Shown: positions 1-56,798 of the stretch, piece after piece
Position numbering within the stretch: the stretch's first letter is position 1
Layout of the letters: the number at the start of each line of letters is the position of its first letter
Source: a virus
Virus record (IMG/VR): IMGVR_UViG_3300037502_002391
Location: 1-64,000 of that record
Reading direction: 5' to 3' (one strand)
DNA: 64,000 nucleotides
Notes under the pieces: generated by a model
The model's input: the letters and a program-made list of their open reading frames with translations, nothing else
Told to the model about the DNA's origin: nothing
Databases searched by the model: none
Position numbers and translations under genes: made by a program

Positions 1-713
1 TTTCCCTGGATGCCCTCACCAATCAACTCACCTTGTATTGCAAAGTTCTTGTTTTTGGCTCTCATCTTGTTCTCCAAATCAAGTTCCCTTGCAACCTTCC
101 AGAAAGTATTCCCCTCTGTTTCCAATAATTCAAGATTTCTTGAACAAACACCAAACTCACCATTGTTTATGTAGAATGTTGCAGAAGATCCATCCAGTTT
201 TTCTGTTATATAGAAATCATCATTTGATTCTATATATGTCTTATAATCATTTGGAATATTCTGGGCTCTAATTTCATCTGTCTTGGAAATGAAGGATGGA
301 AACATTCCTTTTGCCAACCCAGAAAGTTCAGGTGAAATTGGTGTTTCATACTTCACAATACCCAACATTTCTGTCACATCCATACCCTCTTCAAGAGATA
401 TTTCAGAACCTAAAACAGAAATAGGCAATATCAACCCCTGGGAGATTTGCCCCCTCATTTTTACAGTTCTCAATCGAAAACCCTCTGCTTCAGTTGATTT
501 CCTATATGAAGATTTTCTTAAAAATTCAAACTCTTCTTTAATAGGTAAGAAGGAATCAATTTCACAATACACAATGAAATCACCCACCTTATGTTCAACA
601 TTCTTGGCAACAACAACTTGCCATCCATCCACAATGGCCAACTCAATGTTGTCAGCACCTTCAATTTGTCTTAACTCTGATATTTTTCTAATGCTTGCAA
701 GTTTCCTTTCCAT
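1..713 (-). CDS. RNA ligase (ATP-dependent), DRB0094/Rnl2-like family; 3' end runs off the window
   Basis: Absent from the ORF track. Translated by hand from ATG at 713: MERKLASIRKISELRQIEGADNIELAIVDGWQVVV...YCEIDSFLP...RLRTVKMRGQISQGL...KTDEIRAQN...ITEKLDGSSATF...CSRN...AIQGELIGEGIQG. Motif I KxDG and QGE are present. Confidence 0.9.
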   Translation of the reverse strand, partial: MERKLASIRKISELRQIEGADNIELAIVDGWQVVVAKNVEHKVGDFIVYCEIDSFLPIKEEFEFLRKSSYRKSTEAEGFRLRTVKMRGQISQGLILPISVLGSEISLEEGMDVTEMLGIVKYETPISPELSGLAKGMFPSFISKTDEIRAQNIPNDYKTYIESNDDFYITEKLDGSSATFYINNGEFGVCSRNLELLETEGNTFWKVARELDLENKMRAKNKNFAIQGELIGEGIQG

Positions 714-740
714 ATTATTTTTTTTGTTTAGTTAAAAATT

Positions 741-770
741 TCCCCCTACCCAGGTATTTGAGTAGGGGGA
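741..770 (-). terminator. Intrinsic terminator-like hairpin
   Basis: TCCCCCTAC...GTAGGGGGA stem, followed by ATTTTT on the minus strand, just after the 776-1042 gene. Confidence 0.65.
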
Positions 771-775
771 TTTAA

Positions 776-1042
776 TCAATCTACTAAAGTTTCAATCTTT
801 GATTTGTTGATTATATGATCTGTGATTGTATAATCCTCCACTTTTGTCAAGATGACACATTTGGATAAAATCTTATAAGGAACATTGATTAAGAAATCAT
901 TTCCATTATAGAACTGGAGGGTATTCTTTAACTGTAAGGATCCGTGTATAGATTTTAGGAATAACTTGAACTGTGTCTTATCAACAAAATTCTCATTGAT
1001 TAAATTCTCATTCTTATAAATTACTCTAATGTTGTGTGTCAT
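776..1042 (-). CDS. Hypothetical protein
   Basis: Start moved to the ATG at 1042 (MTHNIRV) because the track start lies inside the promoter. Confidence 0.7.
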   Translation of the reverse strand: MTHNIRVIYKNENLINENFVDKTQFKLFLKSIHGSLQLKNTLQFYNGNDFLINVPYKILSKCVILTKVEDYTITDHIINKSKIETLVD

Positions 1043-1063
1043 GTTCTTGTTTTTTTGTTGATG

Positions 1064-1095
1064 CAAATTTAAAGTAAAAAAATGAATTAACCAAA
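1064..1095 (-). promoter_or_regulatory. Bacteroidota primary-sigma promoter (-33 TTTG / -7 TAAATTTG)
   Basis: Minus strand reads TTTG-N20-TAAATTTG, matching TTTG-N19-21-TAnnTTTG. Confidence 0.85.
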
Positions 1096-1114
1096 TCTTT
1101 TTTTCATTATTTTC

Positions 1115-1201
1115 TGGGTTAGGTCATCATCATAGCCACACATTGACCTTTCTTATCAGAAGCCCTATTAACAGGCTACTCCTGGAAGTGTGGATCACCC
1201 A
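1115..1201 (-). ncRNA. Candidate structured RNA with a pseudoknot (family unknown)
   Basis: GC-richer intergenic segment with complementary pairs TGGGT/ACCCA, CCACAC/GTGTGG, AGGTCA/TGACCT, CAGGA/TTCTG and AGCC/GGCT. Confidence 0.5.
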
Positions 1202-1217
1202 TTGATTCTTTTTAACA

Positions 1218-1553
1218 CTAGATTACATACTCTGGAATTCTTTCAATTGAATCATCTATTGTATCCAATAACCCATCACAATATACATCTTTGATTTCTT
1301 TCTTAACTCTTCCAAGAGTATTCACCAAATACACATCATACAAATCACTGCCATTTAATGTAATCAAAACCCAGCCTTTGTGCCTACGGGCAGACACTCT
1401 TAAAAGCAAACCCTTATTGCTTAAATTTATTGTTTTTGACACACCAAAAGACCAGAACACAGGTTGATTATATGTGAGCCAACCCATTGTTTCCTGGGGG
1501 TTAAATTCTAATTTGTCTTCAAGTAAAGGTTTGATTGCTGTTATGATTTTCAT
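1218..1553 (-). CDS. Hypothetical phage protein
   Basis: 111-aa ORF directly behind a host-type promoter. Confidence 0.75.
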   Translation of the reverse strand: MKIITAIKPLLEDKLEFNPQETMGWLTYNQPVFWSFGVSKTINLSNKGLLLRVSARRHKGWVLITLNGSDLYDVYLVNTLGRVKKEIKDVYCDGLLDTIDDSIERIPEYVI

Positions 1554-1572
1554 TTTGGTTGTTTTGTTGATG

Positions 1573-1604
1573 CAAATTTAATACAAAGAAATGAATTAAA
1601 CAAA
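1573..1604 (-). promoter_or_regulatory. Bacteroidota primary-sigma promoter
   Basis: TTTG-N20-TAAATTTG. Confidence 0.85.
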
Positions 1605-1609
1605 TTTTT

Positions 1610-1852
1610 CTACACCAATTCTGGTTGATTTTTTTTAAAACCATTCCAATGGTTTATAACCCTCTCACAAGCATATGGTCTATGACCATATAATCCTTTA
1701 TTAGTAACCATATGCATTCCTGTTTCACCAAACATCCACCACTGAAATTCTATTCCAGATTTAACACAATATAGTTTGCAACCATTACCCCAAGACCATA
1801 ATAGACCTTTTGCTTCAATTTCTATTTCTTTTGCTCTAACTTCTGGTTTCAT
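1610..1852 (-). CDS. Hypothetical protein
   Basis: Start moved to the ATG at 1852 (MKPEVRAKE); the upstream part of the track ORF overlaps a separate small ORF. Confidence 0.65.
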   Translation of the reverse strand: MKPEVRAKEIEIEAKGLLWSWGNGCKLYCVKSGIEFQWWMFGETGMHMVTNKGLYGHRPYACERVINHWNGFKKNQPELV

Positions 1853-1874
1853 ATTAATTTTGTTTAGTTTGGTT

Positions 1875-2009
1875 TTAAAGTATTTTCCAAGAATATGTAG
1901 TATAACTATTACGAAGAAACCGATCACATTCTTTTTTTGTCTTGAACTCACGCACAAACACCCTGCCTGTCTTCTTTTCTGTTAATTCTAACACTTGCGG
2001 CTTTCTCAT
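1875..2009 (-). CDS. Small hypothetical protein (44 aa)
   Basis: Not in track: MRKPQVLELTEKKTGRVFVREFKTKKECDRFLRNSYTTYSWKIL, directly behind the promoter at 2033-2064. Confidence 0.65.
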   Translation of the reverse strand: MRKPQVLELTEKKTGRVFVREFKTKKECDRFLRNSYTTYSWKIL

Positions 2010-2032
2010 AGTGGTTGGTTGTTTTGTTGATG

Positions 2033-2064
2033 CAAATTTATAGCAAATAATTCAAACCACCAAA
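2033..2064 (-). promoter_or_regulatory. Bacteroidota primary-sigma promoter
   Basis: TTTG-N20-TAAATTTG. Confidence 0.85.
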
Positions 2065-2102
2065 TCTTTTTTTAAAGAAAATAGTATTTATGATAAAAAA
2101 AA

Positions 2103-2996
2103 ATGAAGAAGTTTATAACATTTATATTACTAACTATTGTAATCCAGAGTTGCAACACATTATCCCACACAAAAAAGACATATGTCCACCAGTTTGCAGC
2201 CTCAACCAAAGATTTACCAAAGTATTCCTTAAAGTTCAACCAAACATTATCCAATGTGAGGAAAAGTAGGGGTGTATATTTTGCCAATACATTATCAACA
2301 CCATCATTACACCTAACAGAATTAGATAGCATATATGCACAACAAAAATTGGATGAAAGAAAAACCATTTTATTTCAAAACTCATTTGAAATTCTTAATA
2401 CATACTCAAAAATATTATTGGCCTTATCATCAGATGTTTATGTTGATGATTTATATAACAATATAAAAGAACTTGAATATGATTTAGAATCCTTAATAAA
2501 CCTAAATAATAAATTAACATCATTTAACACTCCAACCGGTTTCGTAAATATAGGGGCTAAAATAGGAGTAGTTTCTGGAAGAATTTATATAAACCAAAAA
2601 CAAAGTAAAGAGATAAAAATATTATTAAATTCTTCTGACACATTAATAACAAATGTATCAAATAATATTATTTCATATTTGGATTCTAAAAACTTAAATG
2701 CTATCATTGATAATGAAGATAAGATGTTATCAATAAACTACTTGAGTTATATACAACAATCAAATAGAACTAGTATTTATACTGATTTGGATTATATCAA
2801 ATTAAAATCAGATTTATCTAGCATAAAAGAATTAAAAGATAATTTAATTATTTGTATGATTAATTTAAGAGATTCTCATAAAATAATGGTGGAAGAAATT
2901 AATAAAAAAAATTCAACTATTGATACTATAAATGAAATAAAAGAATTAGCAAAAACCATAGTTGGAATAAACCAAATAATTAAAGAATTAAAATAA
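2103..2996 (+). CDS. Predicted lipoprotein, helical
   Basis: MKKFITFILLTIVIQSC: basic N-terminus, hydrophobic core, lipobox Cys17. Confidence 0.75.
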   Translation: MKKFITFILLTIVIQSCNTLSHTKKTYVHQFAASTKDLPKYSLKFNQTLSNVRKSRGVYFANTLSTPSLHLTELDSIYAQQKLDERKTILFQNSFEILNTYSKILLALSSDVYVDDLYNNIKELEYDLESLINLNNKLTSFNTPTGFVNIGAKIGVVSGRIYINQKQSKEIKILLNSSDTLITNVSNNIISYLDSKNLNAIIDNEDKMLSINYLSYIQQSNRTSIYTDLDYIKLKSDLSSIKELKDNLIICMINLRDSHKIMVEEINKKNSTIDTINEIKELAKTIVGINQIIKELK

Positions 2997-2997
2997 T

Positions 2998-3294
2998 ATG
3001 GAATACCTGTTAAAAGAAATACATACTTCAATTACAAATGTTGAAAATGAAAGATATAATGAGAATTTATCCAAGGTAGAAAAAACTCATCTTGAAAATA
3101 CTTTATTAACATTAAGAAATATGGAGAGATCTATCATTAATAAAAAAAATGATGATATGCTCCAAGAATTATCTACCATCACACCATCCCTAACTAAACT
3201 AATAAATGAAATGGAATCATCTGGGGAAAGACTTAATGAACTAAATGTAAAACTAAAACGCTTAATCAATATTATCAACTTCTTAAAATTCTAA
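2998..3294 (+). CDS. Hypothetical coiled-coil protein
   Basis: 98-aa ORF 1 nt after the lipoprotein gene. Confidence 0.7.
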   Translation: MEYLLKEIHTSITNVENERYNENLSKVEKTHLENTLLTLRNMERSIINKKNDDMLQELSTITPSLTKLINEMESSGERLNELNVKLKRLINIINFLKF

Positions 3295-3296
3295 AA

Positions 3297-3551
3297 ATGG
3301 ATCAGTATATTAAAATCATTGGCTTTATTGCCACCATTATCACCATCACATCTTTCACATTTAAGGACATTCTAACCATTAGACTAGTTAATGTTTTAGG
3401 GTCATTTGTTTGGCTTGTGTATGGCTTTTATACAAAAGACCACCCAATAATCATTGTGAATTTAAGTGTTGTTATAATCCAAATATGGGGCATATTTTTC
3501 TTGTTAAAAGATAGAATGTTTCCACCTCCAAACAAAAATCAAATTCTTTAG
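3297..3551 (+). CDS. Small 3-TM membrane protein (YgjV/PQ-loop-like)
   Basis: Three hydrophobic segments; IRLVNVLGSFVWLVYG...PIIIVN pattern. Confidence 0.65.
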   Translation: MDQYIKIIGFIATIITITSFTFKDILTIRLVNVLGSFVWLVYGFYTKDHPIIIVNLSVVIIQIWGIFFLLKDRMFPPPNKNQIL

Positions 3552-3560
3552 ATGGGGATT

Positions 3561-3590
3561 TCACAGAGGGGCATTGATGCACCTCTGTGA
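3561..3590. terminator. Hairpin between convergent genes (probable bidirectional terminator)
   Basis: TCACAGAGG-G-GCAT-TG-ATGC-A-CCTCTGTGA. Confidence 0.6.
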
Positions 3591-3625
3591 GCATAAAATG
3601 TTGATTATTAGTATAGTTGGGTGTC

Positions 3626-4039
3626 TTAAAAGTAATGAATCCTCTTTAAATACCCATCATCTCCAACCATATTTCTCAATTGACTATTACTATATTCACT
3701 TAATGGAGATGTATAAATGTATAAAGTGCCACCAACTTTCAATCCTTTTGGTAATGAGTGTAAGTTGTAACAACTTTCTAAAATCAAATTACCTCTAACT
3801 ATTAACCCTTCTGGTAATGAACTTATATTTTCACAAAAAGTTAAATTCAAATCACCACTAACTTCCAATCCTTCTGGTAGTGATTCTATATTTGAATATG
3901 TCAAATCCAAATCACCTTCAATATCTAAATCTTTTTCTGTTAATGGTATTTCATTTTTCCATTTCCATAAGAATGGTGGATTGTGTTCTTCCTTTTCTTC
4001 AAGGAATTCAAATATTCTTTTTAATGCTTCTTTTTTCAT
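3626..4039 (-). CDS. LRR-type repeat protein, paralog 6 of array
   Basis: About 3 SLPEGLxVxGxLxL repeats; shared N-cap MKKEALKRIFEFLEEKE. Confidence 0.85.
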   Translation of the reverse strand: MKKEALKRIFEFLEEKEEHNPPFLWKWKNEIPLTEKDLDIEGDLDLTYSNIESLPEGLEVSGDLNLTFCENISSLPEGLIVRGNLILESCYNLHSLPKGLKVGGTLYIYTSPLSEYSNSQLRNMVGDDGYLKRIHYF

Positions 4040-4686
4040 TATCTAAATATTCCTCCTTTTATAAATCCAGGTTTAACCATTTCTCTTAATTGATTATCTG
4101 AATATTCTTCTAATGCCGTACCTAATATAAATAGGTGTTCACCAATTTCTAATCCTTTTGGTAATGAGGTTATTTTTGTGCCTGATAAATCCAAATGCTC
4201 ACTAACTGTAAGTCCTTGGGGTAATGATTTTAATGTTGTACAACTATTTAAAGCAAGATAACCATCAACCTTTAAACCTTTTGGTAAAGATTGTATTTTT
4301 GAAAAAGCCAAATCAATACTCCCATTAACCTCCAAATCTTTTGGCAGTATCTCAATGGATGTGTATGATAAAATTAAATCTTCTTCAACTACCAATCCTT
4401 TTGGTAAATATTTTATGCTTGAATATGATAAATTCAAATGTTCTCCAACTTCCAATCCTTCTGGTAATGATTCTATTTTTGAAGCATATAAACTTAAATT
4501 ACCCCCAACCTTCAACCCTTTTGGTAATGAGGTAATTTCTGATCCTTCAAAAATTAAATCCCCTTTAACATTTAACTCTTCTTTTGTTAATGGTATATTA
4601 TTAATCAATTTCCATTTAACTGGTAGATTATACCCTTCCTTCTCTTTTAGGAATTCAAATATTCTTTTTAAGGTTTCTTTTTTCAT
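4039..4686 (-). CDS. LRR-type repeat protein, paralog 5
   Basis: About 7 repeats of 20-21 aa; shared N- and C-caps. Confidence 0.85.
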   Translation of the reverse strand: MKKETLKRIFEFLKEKEGYNLPVKWKLINNIPLTKEELNVKGDLIFEGSEITSLPKGLKVGGNLSLYASKIESLPEGLEVGEHLNLSYSSIKYLPKGLVVEEDLILSYTSIEILPKDLEVNGSIDLAFSKIQSLPKGLKVDGYLALNSCTTLKSLPQGLTVSEHLDLSGTKITSLPKGLEIGEHLFILGTALEEYSDNQLREMVKPGFIKGGIFR

Positions 4687-4694
4687 ATCATATA

Positions 4695-5165
4695 TTAATT
4701 ATCATCATCTTCTTCATAATCATCTTCATCTTCATAATCATAATCAATGTAATATTCAGAAATTATATCACCTTTTATAAAACCAGGTTCAATTGATTTT
4801 CTTAAATGATCATCATTTTTATAGTAATAAGGTAGTTCAGATTCAGTTACATCTAAATGCCCCCCAACTTTCAATCCTTTTGGTAATGAAGTTATGCTTG
4901 TTCTTACTAAAAATAAACTATCACCAATTTCCAATCCTTCTGGTAGTGATTTTATTTTTGAACGAGATAAATCTAACCAACCACTAATTTTCAAGCCTTT
5001 TGGTAATGAGGTAATTTTTCTATCCTGTAAATCCAAATCACCTTTAATATTTAATTCTTCTTCTGTTAATGGCTCACCATTTTCCCATTTCCATAAGAAT
5101 GGAGTATTATGTTCTCCCTTCTCTTCAAGGAAATCAAATATTCTTTTTAACGCTTCTTTTTCCAT
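4695..5165 (-). CDS. LRR-type repeat protein, paralog 4, with acidic tail
   Basis: About 3 repeats; ends YDYEDEDDYEEDDDN. Confidence 0.85.
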   Translation of the reverse strand: MEKEALKRIFDFLEEKGEHNTPFLWKWENGEPLTEEELNIKGDLDLQDRKITSLPKGLKISGWLDLSRSKIKSLPEGLEIGDSLFLVRTSITSLPKGLKVGGHLDVTESELPYYYKNDDHLRKSIEPGFIKGDIISEYYIDYDYEDEDDYEEDDDN

Positions 5166-5632
5166 TATCTACTAATTTTTCCTTTTATAAATCCAGGTTT
5201 AATCATTTCTCTTAATTTTTCATCTGTGTATTTTGTTAATGGTGTATTTCTTATAAATATAAAATCCCCAACTTCCAATCCTTTTGGTAATGTTGTCATA
5301 TTAGTACCTATTAAACTCAAATAACCACCAACTTTCAATCCTTCTGGTAATGAGGTTATATTTGAATAAAATAAATTCAAATCACCACCAACTTTCAATC
5401 CTTTTGACAATGAAGTTAATTCTGTACAAAAACTTAAATCCAAAGTACCACCAACTTTCAATCCTTCTGGTAATGAGGTTATATTTGTGTTTTTTAAATT
5501 CAAATCACCTTCAATATCTAATTCTTCTTTGGTTAATGGTATATTATTTAATAATTTCCACAAGAATGGAGTATTATGTTCTCCCTTTTCTTCAAGAAAC
5601 TCAAATATTCTTTTTAATACTTCTTTTACCAT
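5165..5632 (-). CDS. LRR-type repeat protein, paralog 3
   Basis: About 4 repeats; C-cap TKYTDEKLREMIKPGFIKGKI. Confidence 0.85.
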   Translation of the reverse strand: MVKEVLKRIFEFLEEKGEHNTPFLWKLLNNIPLTKEELDIEGDLNLKNTNITSLPEGLKVGGTLDLSFCTELTSLSKGLKVGGDLNLFYSNITSLPEGLKVGGYLSLIGTNMTTLPKGLEVGDFIFIRNTPLTKYTDEKLREMIKPGFIKGKISR

Positions 5633-5635
5633 TAT

Positions 5636-6466
5636 CTAATCTCTAATTATTATTCCTTTTATAGACCCAGGTCTAATCATTTGTCTTAATTCCTTATTTG
5701 AATATTTTGTTAATTCTGTATTTTTTATATATATATTATCACCAACTTCCAATCCTTCTGGTAATGAGGTTATTTTTGAATCAGATAAATACAAATCAAG
5801 CAAAACTTTTAATCCTTTTGGTAATGATGTTAAACTTTTGCAGTTTCTTAAATCTAAATCACCCCTAACTTTCAATCCTTCTGGTAAATGGGTTATATTA
5901 GAAGAATTCAAAGACAAACCACCACCCAATTTAAATCCCTCTGGTAATGAGGTTATTTGTGTTTGATTTAAACTCAAATGATTTCCAACTTCCAATCCTT
6001 CTGGTAATGAGGTTATTTTTGTATTTGATAAATCCAACCAACTACTAACTTTCAATCCTTCTGGTAATGAGGTTATTTTTGTATTTGATAACATCAAATA
6101 ACCACCAACTTCCAACCCTTTTGGTAGTGAGGTTATAAATGTGTTATGTAAACTCAAACCACGACCAACTTTCAATCCTTCTGGTAAATGGGTTATATTA
6201 GAATAATTCAAAGTCAAACTACCCCCAACTTGTAAATCATCTGGTAATGAGGTAATATCTACTTGGGATAAATCCAAATTACCACCAACTTTTAAACCTT
6301 TTGGTAATGAGGTTATTTTTGCATTTCTAAAATTCAAATCACCTTTAACATTTAAATCTTCTTTTGTTAATGGTATATTATTAACTAATTTCCATCTAAG
6401 TGGTACATTACATCCTTCCTTTTCTTCAAGGAAATCAATTATTCTTTTTAATGCTTCTTTTTCCAT
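5636..6466 (-). CDS. LRR-type repeat protein, paralog 2
   Basis: About 10 repeats of ITSLPEGLKVGGxLxLSxT. Confidence 0.85.
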   Translation of the reverse strand: MEKEALKRIIDFLEEKEGCNVPLRWKLVNNIPLTKEDLNVKGDLNFRNAKITSLPKGLKVGGNLDLSQVDITSLPDDLQVGGSLTLNYSNITHLPEGLKVGRGLSLHNTFITSLPKGLEVGGYLMLSNTKITSLPEGLKVSSWLDLSNTKITSLPEGLEVGNHLSLNQTQITSLPEGFKLGGGLSLNSSNITHLPEGLKVRGDLDLRNCKSLTSLPKGLKVLLDLYLSDSKITSLPEGLEVGDNIYIKNTELTKYSNKELRQMIRPGSIKGIIIRD

Positions 6467-7059
6467 TATCTAATTATTTTTCCACCTATAAACCCAGGCT
6501 TAATCATTTCTCTTAATTTTTCATCTGTGTATTTTGTTAATGCTGTATTCTTAATAAATAAATGACCATAAACTTCCAAGCCTTTTGGTAATGAAGTTAT
6601 ATTTGAAGAAGATATTATACAATTATGAGCAACTCTAAATCTTTCTGGTAATGATATTAACTTTGGACACATCAATAAAATAAAAGGTCCCTCAACTTCC
6701 AAACCTTTTGGTAATGAGGAAAAATTAGGGCAACTAACTAGAGACAAACTACCAACTTTTTTCAATCCTTCTGGTAATGAGGTTATTGGCACATCTGATA
6801 AATACAAATCACCACGAACATTTAAATCTTTTGGTAATGAGGTTAAATTATTGCAATTTAATAACCGCAAAGCACCAACATTTAATCCTTCTGGCAATGA
6901 TGTTAAATTAAAACCATACACAATTCTCAAATCACCTTCAACATATAAATCTTCTTTTGTTATTGGTTCATTGTTTTTTAGTTTAAAACTAAGTGGTATT
7001 ATCTTACCTTCTTTTTTTTCAAAGAACTCTAACATTCTTTTTAGCACTTCTTTTTCCAT
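6466..7059 (-). CDS. LRR-type repeat protein, paralog 1
   Basis: About 6 repeats; shared caps. Confidence 0.85.
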   Translation of the reverse strand: MEKEVLKRMLEFFEKKEGKIIPLSFKLKNNEPITKEDLYVEGDLRIVYGFNLTSLPEGLNVGALRLLNCNNLTSLPKDLNVRGDLYLSDVPITSLPEGLKKVGSLSLVSCPNFSSLPKGLEVEGPFILLMCPKLISLPERFRVAHNCIISSSNITSLPKGLEVYGHLFIKNTALTKYTDEKLREMIKPGFIGGKIIR

Positions 7060-7961
7060 TATTTTCTATTTATTTTCTCCCCCTCTATTTTTACAGATAT
7101 TTTTGGTTTATAACCTTTTGGCAATCTATTATCTATCCCAACAAACTCCCCCATTTCATTATCCATTCTAATGGTAATTTCTTTCTTATCCAAATTCATC
7201 ATTATTTGTCCCACAGTCTGCATATTATACATATTCTTCATTCTATAAGGGTTCAAGAACTTATTTTTCTTATATTGTTCTTTCATCTTATCAATAACAT
7301 CTAGATCCTTTTCAGCATCTTGCAAATGCTTTTTGGCCAACTCCAATCTTGAATGGGATGACTTCTTCTTTATGCCGTAAATGTAACCTGTTTTTTTGTG
7401 TACTATGCCATGATTGGTTCTTACCTCAACCTTATCATCACCCATCTTTGTTATGACTGGAGTGTCCTTACTTGTGAGTTCAATAATATATATATTTTTT
7501 GGGCTTCCAACAATTGTCTGACCCTTAATTCCAACATTCTTTGGATCATCTGCATCATAAGATATGATTGATTTAATCACATCTTTTAAATTCTTAAAAC
7601 TTAATGCTCTACGTATTTTCTTGCCATCATTGGAGTTCTTAACTTTCTTGGACTTGAATACCTTATTACTTTCCTTCTCATCTTGTCTAACCAATAGACT
7701 TGAATTAACTATTCCAATACCGTATTCATTCATTCCCTCGGACCAGTCTGTTTCTGTGTCTCTCCAATACATAACCTCAACATCATCCACAATCTCATGG
7801 ACAATTTCCATCTTTGCCAAATAACCCCTATCCCTATTTTTGGCTATAACATTTCCATCATCTAATTTGACAGCAGCAATTGTGCATTCTTGAATTAATT
7901 GCTCATTTAATAAAATGTCAACTTGATTTTCAGTAAGCAAAATGAATTTATTATCTTTCAT
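7059..7961 (-). CDS. Ntn-hydrolase (C45/AAT- or NRDE-like) with N-terminal propeptide
   Basis: CTIAAV...AKNRDR...EGMNEYGIGI...RTNH after a 25-aa leader ending LIQE. Confidence 0.7.
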   Translation of the reverse strand: MKDNKFILLTENQVDILLNEQLIQECTIAAVKLDDGNVIAKNRDRGYLAKMEIVHEIVDDVEVMYWRDTETDWSEGMNEYGIGIVNSSLLVRQDEKESNKVFKSKKVKNSNDGKKIRRALSFKNLKDVIKSIISYDADDPKNVGIKGQTIVGSPKNIYIIELTSKDTPVITKMGDDKVEVRTNHGIVHKKTGYIYGIKKKSSHSRLELAKKHLQDAEKDLDVIDKMKEQYKKNKFLNPYRMKNMYNMQTVGQIMMNLDKKEITIRMDNEMGEFVGIDNRLPKGYKPKISVKIEGEKINRK

Positions 7962-7969
7962 TTTTTTAC

Positions 7970-7977
7970 TATAAATA
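7970..7977 (-). promoter_or_regulatory. TATTTATA motif, putative phage late promoter
   Basis: Same motif recurs shortly upstream of many structural-type genes (see findings). Confidence 0.5.
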
Positions 7978-7979
7978 TA

Positions 7980-8396
7980 TCAAGATAATGATTTTATAAT
8001 GTTCATTAACTTTTCATCAATATATAATCCATTCAATTCTTCATAAGTAAAATAGCCACATTCTGTATGTTCATCACCATCTATTGCATTCACCAAATCT
8101 GGTATTAATTTTTTATCTGGACTATCTAATAAATAAACATTGAACTTTCCATTTATCTTACTACCATCCCTTGAATATCTATCAATGACATCAATGATTG
8201 TTAATTTTTTATTTGTTATATGAATATTGGTTTCTTCATAAAACTCCCTTTTAGCACCCTCATGGGTTGTTTCAAATGTTTCCAATTTACCAGCAGGTAT
8301 TGACCACATTCCAGGCAAACTATTGCTCTTTGGACTTCTTTTGCAAAGAAGAAATTGTTTATTATGTCTTACCAAGACACCAACATATTGTCTCAT
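7980..8396 (-). CDS. NUDIX hydrolase
   Basis: Nudix box GKLETFETTHEGAKREFYEETNI. Confidence 0.9.
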   Translation of the reverse strand: MRQYVGVLVRHNKQFLLCKRSPKSNSLPGMWSIPAGKLETFETTHEGAKREFYEETNIHITNKKLTIIDVIDRYSRDGSKINGKFNVYLLDSPDKKLIPDLVNAIDGDEHTECGYFTYEELNGLYIDEKLMNIIKSLS

Positions 8397-53480: not shown

Positions 53481-56400
53481 TTAAACTGTGGTAAATGTGA
53501 TTGTTGTTGTTGCTGTTATTTTATAAATGGTTGATGTTCCAACTTGTGTTACATTTGTCCCTATTACTCTATATCCATTTGGGACTTGTATGAATGCAAC
53601 ACCTGCCCCACCATTACAAGGGTTATTTGGACTTAATTGGGTTGAACCTCCTCCTCCATGATTAGAAATTGTAGGACATCCACAAAAAGCAAGAGATGTA
53701 CTATTAGTTTTATTAACTCCACAACCACCAACGCCATAAATAGATATGGTTGAATCAAGTGGAAGTGAAATTCCACCCTCACCAAAATATGTAGTAGGTT
53801 GTATAGAATAACCAGCTCCACCACCACTATTTTGTGAATTTATATTCACAAAATTACCTGTTGCTCCTGAATAGTTTTGGCAACTGCTCTTTGAACCCCC
53901 ACCTAAACTACCTAATCTACTTGCACCACCACCACCAAATCCAATTCCACTACCACAAACACCTTCAATACCAACTGAACGACCACCACCACCACCAGCA
54001 GCAGATAATATCACATTACTACTTGTATCATATAATGTTGTTGTTCCACCAGTACCACCAGGATCACAAAAACTTGAAGAGCCTGCACCTGCTGTGCCAA
54101 TTATAATTGAGTGACTTGTATTTGTTAATACTGAAATACTATTTCCTGTTGCAATACAACCACCAGCACCTCCACCACCAAAATAACCACCAGATAAATC
54201 CCCATCAGATTTTCCACCTCCACCACCTCCACCAACAAGGTTGACATTTATGTTTATTGAACAATTGGTACTTCCTGTTATTGCACCTGATGAATTAAAA
54301 CCATAGCAAGTTCCACTTACTGAAAATATCCTTTCAGTTCCCCAAGCAGAAGTATCATTATTGTTACATGATGTTAGTGATGGATAATAAATAGAACCAT
54401 TTGAACTATTGAATGTAGAATATCTACCTACTACATAATTACTAGCCAAACAAGCTGTGCTACAATTGTTTAAACCACCAAGATCCCTACCTGCTCCAAA
54501 TACTTTACAAGCAGTCAAGTTTGTTGGTGTGGTTGTTGGTGTGGTTGTTGGTGTGGTTGTTGGTGTGGTTGTTGGTGTGGTTGTTCTTGTATTAGTTGGT
54601 GTAGTGGTATTAGTCATTGTTTGAGTTGGTGTTGTTGTTGGTGTTCTTGTTGGTGTTAATGTTCTTGTTGGTGTTATGGTTGGAGTTGCAGTAGTTGATG
54701 GTGTTTGTGTTGGTGATGGTTGAGTAGGGCATGTTGTTACACTATCTATAACATTATAAGCAAATAATCCAACATTTGGATCCCTAGACCATTCATAACA
54801 GGCAAAATCATCTGTAAATGTATTTGCTGATTCTCCATTATTTGCAAATGCTAAATGATTAATATCACTATAATCATTCAAACAATTAATCTCAGAATTA
54901 ACATCATTGTCAGAATAGTAAACTTTATCATTTATAGATAATGCACCTGAACTTTTTCTAACATATGCTGTAAATGTTGCACCACTTGCTGGACAACCAT
55001 AAGTACAAGTAGCAGGTGTATTTGATGAAGCTCTAAAAGTCCTTGCATAACAGAAAATTGGTGTTGGTGTTGGTGTTGGTGTTCCTGTACTTGTTGGTGT
55101 TGTTGAAGGTGTGACTGTGTTTGTTGGCGTAACTGTATTTGTTGGTGTTGTTGTCCTTGTTGGTGTAACTGTATTTGTTGGTGTAACTGTATTTGTTGGT
55201 GTATTACTAGGTGTTGGTGGTATAGTTGGGCAACTAACTTCTATTTGAAATGTACCATTAGGTTCATTAGTTGTAACTTGAACTATTACAGTAGTTGGCT
55301 CATTTAATGTTTTTGTAAAACTATTCTGGTATAATCCAGTGAATGTTCCTGAACTAATTACATTGGTAGAATTCCATGTTACTAAAACTGTAGTATTTAC
55401 ATTACTACTACAAATAACATTGATATTTCCTGTATTTAATCCAACATTATATGTGTATATATGATATGCTTTTGTTCCACCACTATTAATGATTGAAGTA
55501 TTACAAACTCCAGTATAATTAATTGTTGCATATATTGTTGGTGTAGGTGTGTTTGTTGGTGTTACTGTATTTGTTGGTGTTATTGTGTTTGTTGGTGTAG
55601 ATGTTTTTGTTGGTGTTATTGTGTTTGTTGGTGTAATTGTATTTGTTGGTGTTATTGTATTTGTTGGTGTAATTGTATTAGAAGGTGTATTTGTTGGTGT
55701 TATTGTTCTTGTTGGTGTTATTGTGTTTGTTGGTGTTATTGTATTAGAAGGTGTATTTGTTGGTGTAATTGTATTTGTTGGTGTTATTGTTCTTGTTGGT
55801 GTAATTGTATTAGAAGGTGTATTTGTTGGTGTTATTGTTCTTGTTGGTGTTATTGTATTAGAAGGTGTATTTGTTGGTGTTATTGTGTTTGTTGGTGTTA
55901 TTGTATTAGAAGGTGTATTTGTTGGTGTTATTGTGTTTGTTGGTGTAATTGTATTAGAAGGTGTATTTGTTGGTGTTATTGTTCTTGTTGGTGTTATTGT
56001 GTTTGTTGGTGTAATTGTATTAGAAGGTGTATTTGTTGGTGTTATTGTATTAGAAGGTGTATTTGTTGGCGTTATTGTATTTGTTGGTGTTATTGTGTTT
56101 GTTGGTGTAATTGTATTAGAAGGTGTATTTGTTGGTGTTATTGTTCTTGTTGGTGTTATTGTGTTTGTTGGTGTAATTGTATTAGAAGGTGTATTTGTTG
56201 GTGTTATTGTATTAGAAGGTGTATTTGTTGGCGTTATTGTATTTGTTGGTGTTATTGTGTTTGTTGGTGTAGATGTTTTTGTTGGTGTTATTGTGTTTGT
56301 TGGTGTATTTGTTGGTGTTATTGTGTTTGTTGGTGTAGATGTTTTTGTTGGTGTTATTGTGTTTGTTGGTGTAATTGTATTTGTTGGTGTTATTGTATTT

Positions 56401-56798
56401 GTTGGTGTAATTGTATTAGAAGGTGTATTTGTTGGTGTTATTGTTCTTGTTGGTGTTATTGTGTTTGTTGGTGTTATTGTATTAGAAGGTGTATTTGTTG
56501 GTGTAATTGTAACAGTAGGAGTAATAGTTGTTGTTGGTGTAATAGTTACAGTAGGTGTTGGTGTTTTTGTTGGTGATGGTGTAATCATAGGATCAATCAA
56601 CTGAAATCCACATGATTTATTTATAGATGAAAAGTATAAATCATATATACCATAATAATACCCATCAACATTTGAATAAAAATATGGTAAAATAGCATTA
56701 TTTATTATTCTAGTTCCACCAGTTTCAGGATAAAATGTAATTGTTGAATTATACCCAGAATAATTTAAAGTATCTATATATAGAACATTACTAGCCAT
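53481..56798 (-). CDS. Mucin-like Thr/Pro-repeat fibre protein with Gly-rich C-terminal domain
   Basis: About 350-aa (TNTITP)n tract, Cys-rich modules, LVGGGGGGG...GGAG C-terminal domain. Confidence 0.85.
55540..56580. repeat. Coding tandem repeat (18-bp TNTITP unit with 12-bp variants)
   Basis: (GTTGGTGTTATTGTGTTT)n on the plus strand. Confidence 0.95.

What the first reader, a model, noticed from the sequence alone, without database searches (positions are those of the whole stretch)
3626..7059. Tandem array of six capped LRR-type proteins with variable repeat number: a possible phage binder repertoire
Seen: six translationally coupled paralogs share an N-cap (MxKEALKRIFEFLEEKE...PLTKEELNVKGDL) and a C-cap (LxxYxxxxLRxMxKPGFIKGxI). 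Between the caps are about 3, 7, 3, 4, 10 and 6 copies of a 20-21-aa SLPxGLxVGGxLxLxxT unit. Scaffold positions are constant and the xLxLxx strand positions vary. Paralogs are mosaics: about 40 identical bp at 5200-5241 vs 6501-6542, and about 25 bp at 5095-5120 vs 5562-5587. Inference: recombination shuffles repeats to give diversified binding surfaces, analogous in architecture to VLRs. There are no signal peptides, so targets may be cytoplasmic, such as host defence proteins.
Basis: partly seen in the sequence, partly recalled or inferred. Interest (0 to 1): 0.8.

Follow-up and report, generated by a model that had tools for sequence, protein, structure and literature searches.

The report
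Phage array of small LRR binders
An uncultured freshwater giant relative of phage T4 carries six adjacent genes from a large, unstudied, phage-only family of small leucine-rich-repeat binding proteins; the family diversifies by ordinary recombination, not by a dedicated diversity machine, and what the proteins bind is unknown.

Summary
Six minus-strand genes (3626-7059) share an N-cap and a C-cap and hold 6, 10, 4, 3, 7 and 3 repeat units of 20/21 aa.

AlphaFold models are confident (pLDDT 92-93) and are LRR solenoids. The best solved match is Vibrio FlrP (Z 14.1). Variability sits at unit positions 11, 13, 15 and 16, the outward residues of the xLxLxx strand.

The family has no Pfam model. 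It was found only in uncultured phages, and the scan had already noted it on other phage DNA. A related 270-kb T4-type phage has 41 copies, about 8% of its genome.

Exchange is real but ordinary:
- A three-gene cassette (g1-g3), bounded by a 16-nt repeat at the gene starts, is absent from the relative.
- One conversion-like tract is significant (global P 0.0002).
- Relatives share blocks of identical repeat units between paralogs.

Nothing points to programmed diversification. Orthologs are 88-99.5% identical, array segments are near-identical in contigs from four studies, dN/dS at variable sites is 0.71, and no reverse transcriptase was found.

A late-type TATTTATA motif, an array inside the relative's head operon, and a T4 capsid-targeting-like EF[IL]xE leader hint that the proteins are head cargo. 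That is inferred, not shown.

The parts
6466..7059 (-). g1, 197 aa, N-cap + 6 units + C-cap
   Evidence: It is 92% aa / 95% nt identical to a singleton gene at 174051-174665 of the related 270-kb phage record G001.
5636..6466 (-). g2, 276 aa, 10 units
   Evidence: AlphaFold pLDDT 92.8, pTM 0.84, a continuous solenoid. No close ortholog in G001 or G003 (50% aa or less).
5165..5632 (-). g3, 155 aa, 4 units
   Evidence: AlphaFold pLDDT 92.4. Best solved match 8z5u_0, Z 14.1. Nearest relative 65% aa.
4695..5165 (-). g4, 156 aa, 3 units plus a 20-aa Tyr/Asp/Glu tail (4698-4757)
   Evidence: 98.7% aa identical to G001 233339-233809. pI 4.46.
4039..4686 (-). g5, 215 aa, 7 units
   Evidence: 99.5% aa identical to G001 232683-233330. 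1650 database relatives at E<=1e-3, none with a Pfam domain in the best 120 apart from one LRR_14.
3626..4039 (-). g6, 137 aa, 3 units, divergent C-cap
   Evidence: 93.4% aa identical to G001 232270-232683.
5166..7059 (-). g1-g2-g3 cassette, present here and absent at the syntenic site of G001
   Evidence: Window 1-5180 matches G001 228645-233824 at 97% nt. Window from about 7060 onward matches G001 233812 onward at 87%.
7047..7062 (-). Upstream copy of the 16-nt direct repeat ATAATGGAAAAAGAAG, spanning stop/start, at the cassette boundary
5153..5168 (-). Downstream copy of the same 16-nt direct repeat
6500..6542 (-). 43-nt tract in the g1 C-cap, identical to 5199-5241 in the g3 C-cap
   Evidence: 26 consecutive agreeing polymorphic sites, global P 0.0002.
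5199..5241 (-). Partner of the 43-nt tract (g3 C-cap)
7059..7961 (-). Upstream gene, 300 aa, weak Ntn-hydrolase/AAT match; its stop overlaps the g1 start
   Evidence: Pfam AAT, E 8e-4, below cut-off. TAATG overlap. The same gene precedes g4' in G001.
7970..7977 (-). TATTTATA motif 9 nt upstream of the operon's first start codon; late-promoter-like
   Evidence: 13 of 26 window hits lie in the 4.5% non-coding DNA. In G001, 59 of 123 hits are intergenic and 45 lie just upstream of same-strand starts, including the prohead protease gene.

Best explanation
The six genes belong to a large, uncharacterised, phage-restricted family of small soluble LRR solenoid proteins.

Each protein has a two-helix N-cap, 3-10 units of consensus S-L-P-[EK]-G-L-[KE]-V-G-G-x-L-x-L-x-x-[TSC]-x-I-T, and a helix-plus-strand C-cap. 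The x residues flank the core leucines on the stacked beta-strands. They form one variable surface rich in Asp, Asn, Ser and Tyr, so each paralog most likely binds a different macromolecular target.

The repertoire is inherited, not generated on demand. It changes by ordinary homologous recombination:
- whole genes are gained or lost between the near-identical gene-start sequences;
- short tracts are converted between paralogs;
- blocks of units are copied between paralogs;
- units duplicate within genes.

Individual genes are otherwise stable across samples and years.

The array is read from a late-type promoter together with an upstream hydrolase-like gene. In a sister phage another array sits between the prohead protease and the capsid genes. 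The first helix carries a K-x-I-x-[ED]-F-[LI]-x-E motif like the T4 capsid-targeting sequence.

I therefore think the proteins are most likely loaded into the head and delivered with the DNA, to bind host proteins such as defence factors.

Shown: fold, family size, position of variability, recombination signatures, stability and promoter-motif context. Inferred: protein binding, packaging, cleavage of the leader, and host targets.
For: Fold:
- AlphaFold pLDDT 92.4 and 92.8.
- All top solved matches are LRRs: FlrP 8z5u Z 14.1, rmsd 3.1 A over 139 residues, then Leptospira LRRs, SHOC2 and IpaH.
- By sequence, E 6e-24 to 8z5u and 7e-7 to SspH1.

Repeat class is used for protein recognition elsewhere: long relatives carry the same repeats fused to the NEL E3-ligase domain (E 2e-37) and to PcfJ.

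Variable face:
- Entropy profile.
- DSSP places positions 11-13 in a strand, so 11 and 13 alternate with core L12 and L14.
- Composition at variable positions is D 16.7%, N 14.9%, S 12.1%, Y 10.0%.

Family size and range:
- 41 genes in G001, 23 in G003.
- 1650 close relatives.
- 895 representatives at E<=1e-30.
- ESM Atlas nearest clusters are 97-100% viral.
- No capped member in 50,697 phage records or in 185,579 species genomes.

Recombination: cassette and 16-nt repeat; tract; patchy divergence; identical unit blocks; gene order differs between G001 and G003 arrays.

Stability.

Late or head context:
- TATTTATA enrichment and position.
- S77 protease - 3 LRR genes - 541-aa ORF - gp23-like capsid gene in G001.

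Leader:
- Conservation is I9 98%, F12 99%, L/I13 97%, E15 61%.
- T4 IPII and IPIII begin MKTYQEFIAE.
- In T4, residues 4 and 7 target and residues 8 and 10 direct processing (PMC9026906).
- Helix 1 (residues 2-15/17) has the lowest pLDDT, 70-77.
Against: - No target, binding, packaging or cleavage has been observed.
- The [LIVM]-x-E site is not invariant: 59% at E15 and 43% at E11.
- The T4 resemblance is five residues long and was looked for.
- Helix 1 is modelled as part of the fold.
- A profile of the leader finds no unrelated protein with it in three genomes. A looser eight-residue pattern finds two.
- pI ranges from 4.2 to 9.4, median 6.1, unlike the basic T4 internal proteins.
- Only 4 of 9 clusters in G001 lie in a unit headed by TATTTATA. 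The largest array follows an RNA ligase gene.
- LRRs can also bind glycans or serve as structural braces, as FlrP does.
Confidence: 0.5

Rival explanations
1. The proteins are made in the infected cell and act there without being packaged. This is the first reader's reading: cytoplasmic binders of host proteins such as defence factors. The N-terminal helix is then only a structural cap.
For: No signal peptide. Helix 1 is modelled as packed on the solenoid. The leader is confined to the family in the profile search. The pI is not basic. Several arrays lie next to nucleic-acid-metabolism genes: RNA ligase, Nudix and DNA methyltransferase.
Against: Late expression is the wrong time to neutralise defences that act on entry. 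The operon here and three other LRR units in G001 sit behind the late-type motif, and one array is inside the head operon.
Confidence: 0.3
2. The proteins are virion-surface decorations or adhesins. They attach through the conserved caps to capsid, collar or fibres and offer many different binding faces to host or environmental surfaces.
For: Late-type promoter context. The window also encodes SprB-repeat and Gly-rich fibre-type proteins. LRR or beta-helix modules are proposed as host-recognition parts of a chimallivirus fibre cloud (bioRxiv 10.64898/2026.04.21.720040).
Against: No recognisable attachment or trimerisation domain. The proteins are very small monomer-like solenoids. Arrays are scattered, mostly away from the tail and fibre genes.
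Confidence: 0.08
3. The proteins are structural parts of the prohead core or head interior, a brace or spacer role like FlrP on the flagellar rod. Their diversity would then be drift on a tolerant scaffold.
For: An array lies between the protease and the capsid genes in G001. The closest solved relative is a structural brace.
Against: A structural role does not explain 41 paralogs with variability concentrated on one face and rich in Tyr, Asp and Asn. It also does not explain gene content that differs between sister phages.
Confidence: 0.08
4. Programmed diversification: somatic-type assembly as in lamprey VLRs, or retroelement-driven mutagenesis (DGR), rewrites the variable codons during the phage's life.
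For: The architecture resembles VLRs. Asn, Asp, Tyr and Ser are common at the variable positions.
Against: No reverse transcriptase in four related records, one of them 90% complete. Lys is 8.8% at variable positions, which AAY mutagenesis cannot give. All genes are complete. Orthologs are 88-99.5% identical. Repeat segments have 0 differences in contigs from four studies dated 2019-2025.
Confidence: 0.02

Closest known systems
Vibrio FlrP (PDB 8Z5U/8Z5W; bioRxiv 10.64898/2025.12.04.692373)
   Same: Same 20-aa repeat type (LP.GL.V.G.L.L..T.I) and the same small beta-solenoid. phmmer E 6e-24; Z 14.1, rmsd 3.1 A over 139 of 155 residues.
   Different: FlrP has a Sec signal, is periplasmic, is a single gene and braces the flagellar rod. 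It lacks the family's N-cap helices and C-cap, and it is bacterial, not viral.
LPX-type LRR domains of IpaH/SspH/SlrP/YopM type III effectors
   Same: Short bacterial LRR with an LP motif, used to recognise target proteins. Sequence hits to SspH1 and IpaH, Z 9-10. Long relatives of this repeat carry a true NEL ligase domain.
   Different: No NEL domain, no secretion signal, different caps, phage-encoded, and present in tens of copies per genome.
Lamprey/hagfish variable lymphocyte receptors and engineered repebodies
   Same: Capped LRR with a variable module number and variable concave-strand residues. Weak sequence and fold matches.
   Different: VLR genes are assembled somatically from cassettes into an incomplete germ-line gene. 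Here every gene is complete and stable. The caps are unrelated and lack disulfides, and the unit is 20-21 aa.
T4 internal proteins IPI, IPII and IPIII with the capsid-targeting sequence (PMC3012670, PMC9026906)
   Same: T4-type phage with gp20, gp21 (S77) and gp23 homologs in the sister genome. Variable accessory genes. Leader motif [ED]-F-[LI]-x-E versus T4 E-F-I-A-E. Position after a Nudix gene and a hydrolase gene parallels T4 nudE-e-ipIII-ipII.
   Different: Unrelated fold. Not uniformly basic. The leader starts five residues further in. Packaging and cleavage are untested.
Repeat-protein multigene families of large eukaryotic viruses (poxvirus ankyrin, mimivirus-type LRR, ankyrin and FNIP families)
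   Same: A large virus devotes several per cent of its genome to tandem paralogs of a repeat scaffold. BFVD fold hits include many giant-virus LRR proteins at weak scores.
   Different: Different repeat classes, hosts and caps; no sequence relationship shown.

Membership tests
Leucine-rich repeat superfamily (fold) | Tandem 20-30-aa units with the LxxLxLxx(N/C/T)xL core | tested here: met
   Units of 20/21 aa with L12 92%, L14 89%, T/S/C17 over 90% and I/L19 over 90%.
Leucine-rich repeat superfamily (fold) | Solenoid with a parallel beta-sheet formed by the LxL strands | tested here: met
   Models at pLDDT 92-93 have one strand at unit positions 11-13 in every unit. All best structural matches are LRR proteins, Z 9-14.
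Leucine-rich repeat superfamily (Pfam models) | Score above the gathering cut-off of a Pfam LRR model | tested here: not met
   LRR_4 23.0 vs 27, LRR_8 19.1 vs 27, LRR_1 19.0 vs 20.6, DUF5649 24.6 vs 25. Three of the six proteins have no hit at all.
IpaH/SspH NEL effectors | C-terminal NEL E3-ligase domain | tested here: not met
   No NEL hit in any of the six. NEL occurs only in long relatives that share the repeats.
FlrP-like flagellar rod LRR | Sec signal peptide and periplasmic location | tested here: not met
   N-termini are charged helices and there is no hydrophobic segment. FlrP has signal residues 1-19.
VLR-type somatic assembly | Incomplete germ-line gene flanked by partial LRR cassettes; variants within one population | tested here: not met
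   All 70 members in three genomes are complete ORFs with both caps or nearly so. Unique array segments have 0-5 differences in four studies.
Diversity-generating retroelement target | Reverse transcriptase and template repeat; variable residues limited to those reachable from AAY codons | tested here: not met
   No RVT_1 hit in G000, G001 (90% complete), G003 or G005. Lys 8.8% and Glu 3.1% at variable positions. G000 itself is only 27% complete.
T4-type internal (head cargo) proteins | Phage has a T4-type S77 prohead protease | tested here: met
   Peptidase_S77 E 3.6e-22 and phrog_207 E 3.6e-42 in sister genome G001. Not seen in the 82-kb fragment that holds the window.
T4-type internal (head cargo) proteins | N-terminal capsid-targeting sequence ending in [LI]-x-E | tested here: inconclusive
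   F12 99% and L/I13 97%, but E15 only 61%. The alternative I9-x-E11 occurs in 43%. The resemblance to MKTYQEFIAE is short.
T4-type internal (head cargo) proteins | Presence in the virion, removal of the leader, ejection into the host | not testable with these tools
   No cultured relative was found in the phage collection, and no proteome is available.

The most novel reading that the evidence does not exclude
Giant T4-related freshwater phages carry in their heads a ready-made panel of tens of different LRR binders. Each has a cleavable capsid-targeting helix. They are injected with the DNA so that pre-formed binders neutralise a range of host defence proteins before any phage gene is expressed. 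This would be an inherited, recombination-shuffled counter-defence repertoire.
Probability: 0.25. Interest if true: 0.85.

Novelty: new variant of a known kind. Interest (0 to 1): 0.6.

Why it matters
LRR binders are a known kind of protein. A phage that spends about 8% of a 270-kb genome on 41 small capped LRR genes is not described in the literature I could search, and the family has no Pfam model.

If the proteins are binders of host factors, they would be one of the largest viral binder repertoires. They would also be a natural library of stable 14-30-kDa scaffolds comparable to repebodies.

If they are head cargo, they would extend the T4 internal-protein idea from a few small inhibitors to a modular, evolvable panel. 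Each paralog would also be a probe for an unknown host defence or surface protein.

The stretch occurs in 20 runs of 9 studies labelled riverine, aquatic, freshwater, subsurface, wastewater and, in one run, marine, so the phage is widespread.

Tried and rejected
- Pfam and PHROGs on the six proteins gave only sub-threshold LRR and DUF5649 hits, and PHROGs of unknown function.
- Megablast of 20 kb against 50,697 phage records gave no match. tblastn of g5 found only a repeat-only hit in Edwardsiella phage Edno5.
- The scan of 185,579 species genomes found only repeat-region matches: Rhabdochlamydiaceae, Saccharibacteria, a Bacteroides MAG and others. The two that seemed to reach the caps do not carry them. 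This gave no clue to the host.
- DGR idea: no reverse transcriptase.
- Positive selection: pooled dN/dS over 16 ortholog pairs is 0.71 at variable positions, 0.45 at scaffold positions and 0.44-0.48 in the caps. Divergence is small (dS 0.03-0.09), so power is low.
- Leader as a generic tag: an 18-aa profile found no non-family protein.
- Read-level variation: all runs are kept as Logan contigs, which break inside the repeats into 150-600-nt pieces. The many 'joints' have short sides and mostly reflect paralogs, so they say nothing about array haplotypes. No RNA run was examined.
- Foldseek against PDB gave no hit at E<=0.001. Only the second-look aligner gave usable Z-scores.
- No complex prediction was run, because no specific partner could be named. 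The neighbour of the hydrolase-like gene is g1 here but g4' in G001.
- No tree was built. Orthology rests on BLAST identities and synteny.
Full report
**What is there.** The window is the first 64 kb of an 82-kb IMG/VR virus record, estimated 27% complete, with about 29% G+C. Six ORFs lie head to tail on the minus strand between 3626 and 7059. Cutting each protein at the SLP anchor gives a 52-53-aa N-terminal part. Then follow 6, 10, 4, 3, 7 and 3 units of 20 or 21 aa in transcription order, the last unit running into a 22-aa C-terminal part. Three junctions are TAATG overlaps and two are gaps of 3 and 8 nt. TRF sees the 60-nt period in g2, g3 and g5. There is no signal peptide or membrane segment.

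**Fold.** Pfam gives only sub-threshold LRR and DUF5649 hits, and three of the six proteins get nothing. AlphaFold2 on g3 with 30 same-length homologs gave pLDDT 92.4 and pTM 0.84. On g2 with 20 homologs it gave 92.8 and 0.84. Both models have two N-terminal helices, a regular solenoid with short strands at unit positions 7-8 and 11-13, two short C-terminal helices and a closing strand pair.

[quoted passage not shown] It is followed by Leptospira LRR proteins, SHOC2 and IpaH LRR domains. By sequence, g2 matches 8z5u at E 6e-24 and SspH1 at 7e-7. FlrP is a Sec-exported rod-binding LRR, so the likeness is in repeat type and fold, not in family. Long database relatives share only the repeat region. 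They carry it fused to NEL E3-ligase, PcfJ, DnaJ or amidoligase domains. This places the unit in the short bacterial LP-type LRR class used for target recognition.

**Where the variation lies.** In 357 unique 20-aa units from 190 family members, entropy exceeds 3 bits at positions 11, 13, 15 and 16 and is about 3.0 at 18. It is below 0.7 at 2, 3, 6, 8, 12, 14 and 19. Positions 11-13 are a strand in every unit of the model. Residues 11 and 13 therefore point away from the core leucines 12 and 14 and stack into one surface. I had no coordinates, so this rests on strand alternation and the DSSP string. The variable positions are rich in Asp, Asn, Ser, Tyr and Lys.

**How big the family is.**
- g5 has 1650 relatives at E<=1e-3 in the 90%-clustered database, with lengths quantised at about 135, 155, 176-181, 196, 216 and 240 aa.
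- A profile search finds 895 representatives at E<=1e-30, including repeat-only long proteins.
- ESM Atlas neighbours are clusters that are 97-100% viral.
- BFVD's best hits are unnamed 'Leucine-rich repeat' proteins of uncultured Caudovirales.
- No capped member was found in 50,697 deposited phage genomes or in one genome of each of 185,579 prokaryote species.
- A related 270-kb record (G001, 90% complete) has 41 members in nine clusters, about 22 kb or 8% of the genome. A 107-kb record (G003) has 23.
- G001 has T4-type terminase, portal, S77 prohead protease and gp23-like capsid genes. This is a giant T4 relative.

**Is the array variable among relatives?** Window 1-5180 aligns with G001 228645-233824 at 97% nt, and the window from about 7060 aligns with G001 from 233812 at 87%. 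Between them G001 has nothing, while the window has g1-g2-g3. The extra cassette runs exactly from start codon to start codon. It is bounded by the 16-nt direct repeat ATAATGGAAAAAGAAG at 7047-7062 and 5153-5168.
- g1 is 95% nt identical to a singleton gene 59 kb away and on the other strand in G001.
- g2 and g3 have no ortholog above 65% aa.
- g4, g5 and g6 are 98.7, 99.5 and 93.4% identical to the three G001 genes at the syntenic site.

Gene order also differs between a seven-gene array of G001 and its five-gene counterpart in G003. So gene content changes between sister phages. The 16 gap-free ortholog pairs, however, are 88-99.5% identical and keep their repeat number.

**Exchange between paralogs.** The 43-nt identity between the C-caps of g1 and g3 corresponds to 26 consecutive agreeing polymorphic sites (global P 0.0002 in 5000 site permutations). 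The 26-nt identity between the N-caps of g3 and g4 is only suggestive. Differences between orthologs are clumped. In one pair the N-caps are 86% identical while the C-caps are 98%, and both N-caps are 91% identical to a neighbouring gene. In G001 different paralogs share one to three consecutive units with identical variable halves, sometimes at different unit positions. The usual distance is 7 of 12 residues. No such shared unit exists among the window's six genes. Here the evidence is for cap tracts and whole-gene cassettes, with unit-block exchange seen at family level.

**Against programmed diversification.**
- Pooled dN/dS is 0.71 at variable positions, 0.45 at scaffold positions and 0.44-0.48 in the caps.
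- No reverse transcriptase is present in four records.
- The stretch is held by 20 runs of 9 studies, mostly riverine, aquatic, freshwater, subsurface and wastewater metagenomes plus one run labelled marine.
- In contigs of four of these studies the unique parts of the array, repeat regions included, carry 0-5 differences.
- The contigs are too fragmented to phase the array.

**Context and a possible route of delivery.** TATTTATA on the coding strand is strongly enriched in non-coding DNA. In the window, 13 of 26 hits lie in the 4.5% that is non-coding. In G001, 59 of 123 lie in 10.7% non-coding DNA, and 45 sit mostly 10-21 nt upstream of a same-strand start. One copy lies 9 nt before the 300-aa hydrolase-like gene, whose stop overlaps the g1 start. 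In G001 the motif precedes the prohead protease gene, which is followed at a 1-nt gap by three LRR genes, a 541-aa ORF and the capsid gene. It also precedes two further LRR units.

The leader of the family reads M-[EK]-K-E-x-L-K-[RK]-I-F-[ED]-F-[LI]-[EK]-E-K, with I9 98%, F12 99%, L/I13 97% and E15 61%. T4 IPII and IPIII start MKTYQEFIAE. In that sequence, residues 4 and 7 direct targeting and residues 8 and 10 direct cleavage by gp21 (PMC9026906). T-even internal proteins are described as a diverse set of anti-restriction proteins sharing only that tag (PMC3012670).

The predicted leader coincides with helix 1, the least confident part of both models. The order Nudix gene, hydrolase gene, array also parallels T4 nudE-e-ipIII-ipII. 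All this is suggestive only:
- the site is not invariant;
- the match is short and was searched for;
- the proteins are not uniformly basic;
- a leader profile finds no unrelated carrier.

A looser eight-residue pattern finds two unrelated carriers, both next to the g1 ortholog. One of them has a sub-threshold ART-PolyVal match, as does a third ORF nearby that carries a variant of the tag.

**Verdict.** It overreaches with the VLR analogy. The thing is a new, large, phage-only LRR family: an inherited binder repertoire shaped by ordinary recombination. Function and targets are unknown. Head cargo is the reading I favour at modest odds.

The same family, and the capsid-tag idea, have been noted by this scan on other phage DNA. 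I treated those notes as leads. I checked the head-operon placement, the promoter motif and the mosaic signal myself on this phage and its sister records.

Noticed in passing
window 7970-7977 and 25 other sites; G001 genome-wide: TATTTATA on the coding strand behaves like a promoter element. Half of all copies lie in the few per cent of non-coding DNA, mostly 10-21 nt upstream of same-strand starts, including head genes in G001. It differs from the T4 late box TATAAATA in its two middle bases.
   Followed up: partly
window 4698-4757 (C-terminal tail of g4): A 20-aa tail made only of Tyr, Asp, Glu, Ile and Asn follows the C-cap of g4, and the C-terminal 129 nt are 100% identical in G001. Tyr flanked by acidic residues looks like a tyrosine-sulfation or DNA-mimic motif. 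An earlier first-reader note, not checked here, reports a sulfotransferase elsewhere in this window.
   Followed up: no
L081 (G001 96000-112000): T4-type head module on the minus strand: terminase large subunit, gp20-like portal, two small ORFs, S77 prohead protease, three LRR genes, a 541-aa ORF and a gp23-like capsid protein of 597 aa with a long N-terminal extension.
   Followed up: partly
L009 8743-12835 (next to the g1 ortholog): Three unrelated-looking ORFs begin MNLQENI.RI. Two of them have sub-threshold ART-PolyVal (ADP-ribosyltransferase) hits. A neighbour is a Tae4-type amidase above the Pfam cut-off. Two further ORFs begin MKILINENQLSDIINE. This looks like an island of tagged effector-like genes.
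   Followed up: partly
window 7059-8396 versus T4 65416-67490 (L082): The order Nudix hydrolase, hydrolase-like gene, LRR array parallels T4 nudE, e (lysozyme), ipIII, ipII. It may be coincidence.
   Followed up: no
G000 81499-82255 (beyond the window): The end of the window's record matches bases 1-756 of G001 at 93%. The two ends of the 270-kb G001 record are therefore contiguous in this phage, and G001 is probably a complete, permuted genome.
   Followed up: no
window 7058: In one run (X6) a contig carries an 11-nt insertion between the hydrolase-like gene and g1, replacing the overlapping stop/start by a short spacer.
   Followed up: no
window 55500-56600 and 58600-59600: These parts of the two very long ORFs (53481-56798 and 57275-60883) match several repetitive regions of G001 (34-36 kb, 67-72 kb) at 66-73% nt. 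This is a second, unrelated repeat family in fibre-type genes.
   Followed up: no
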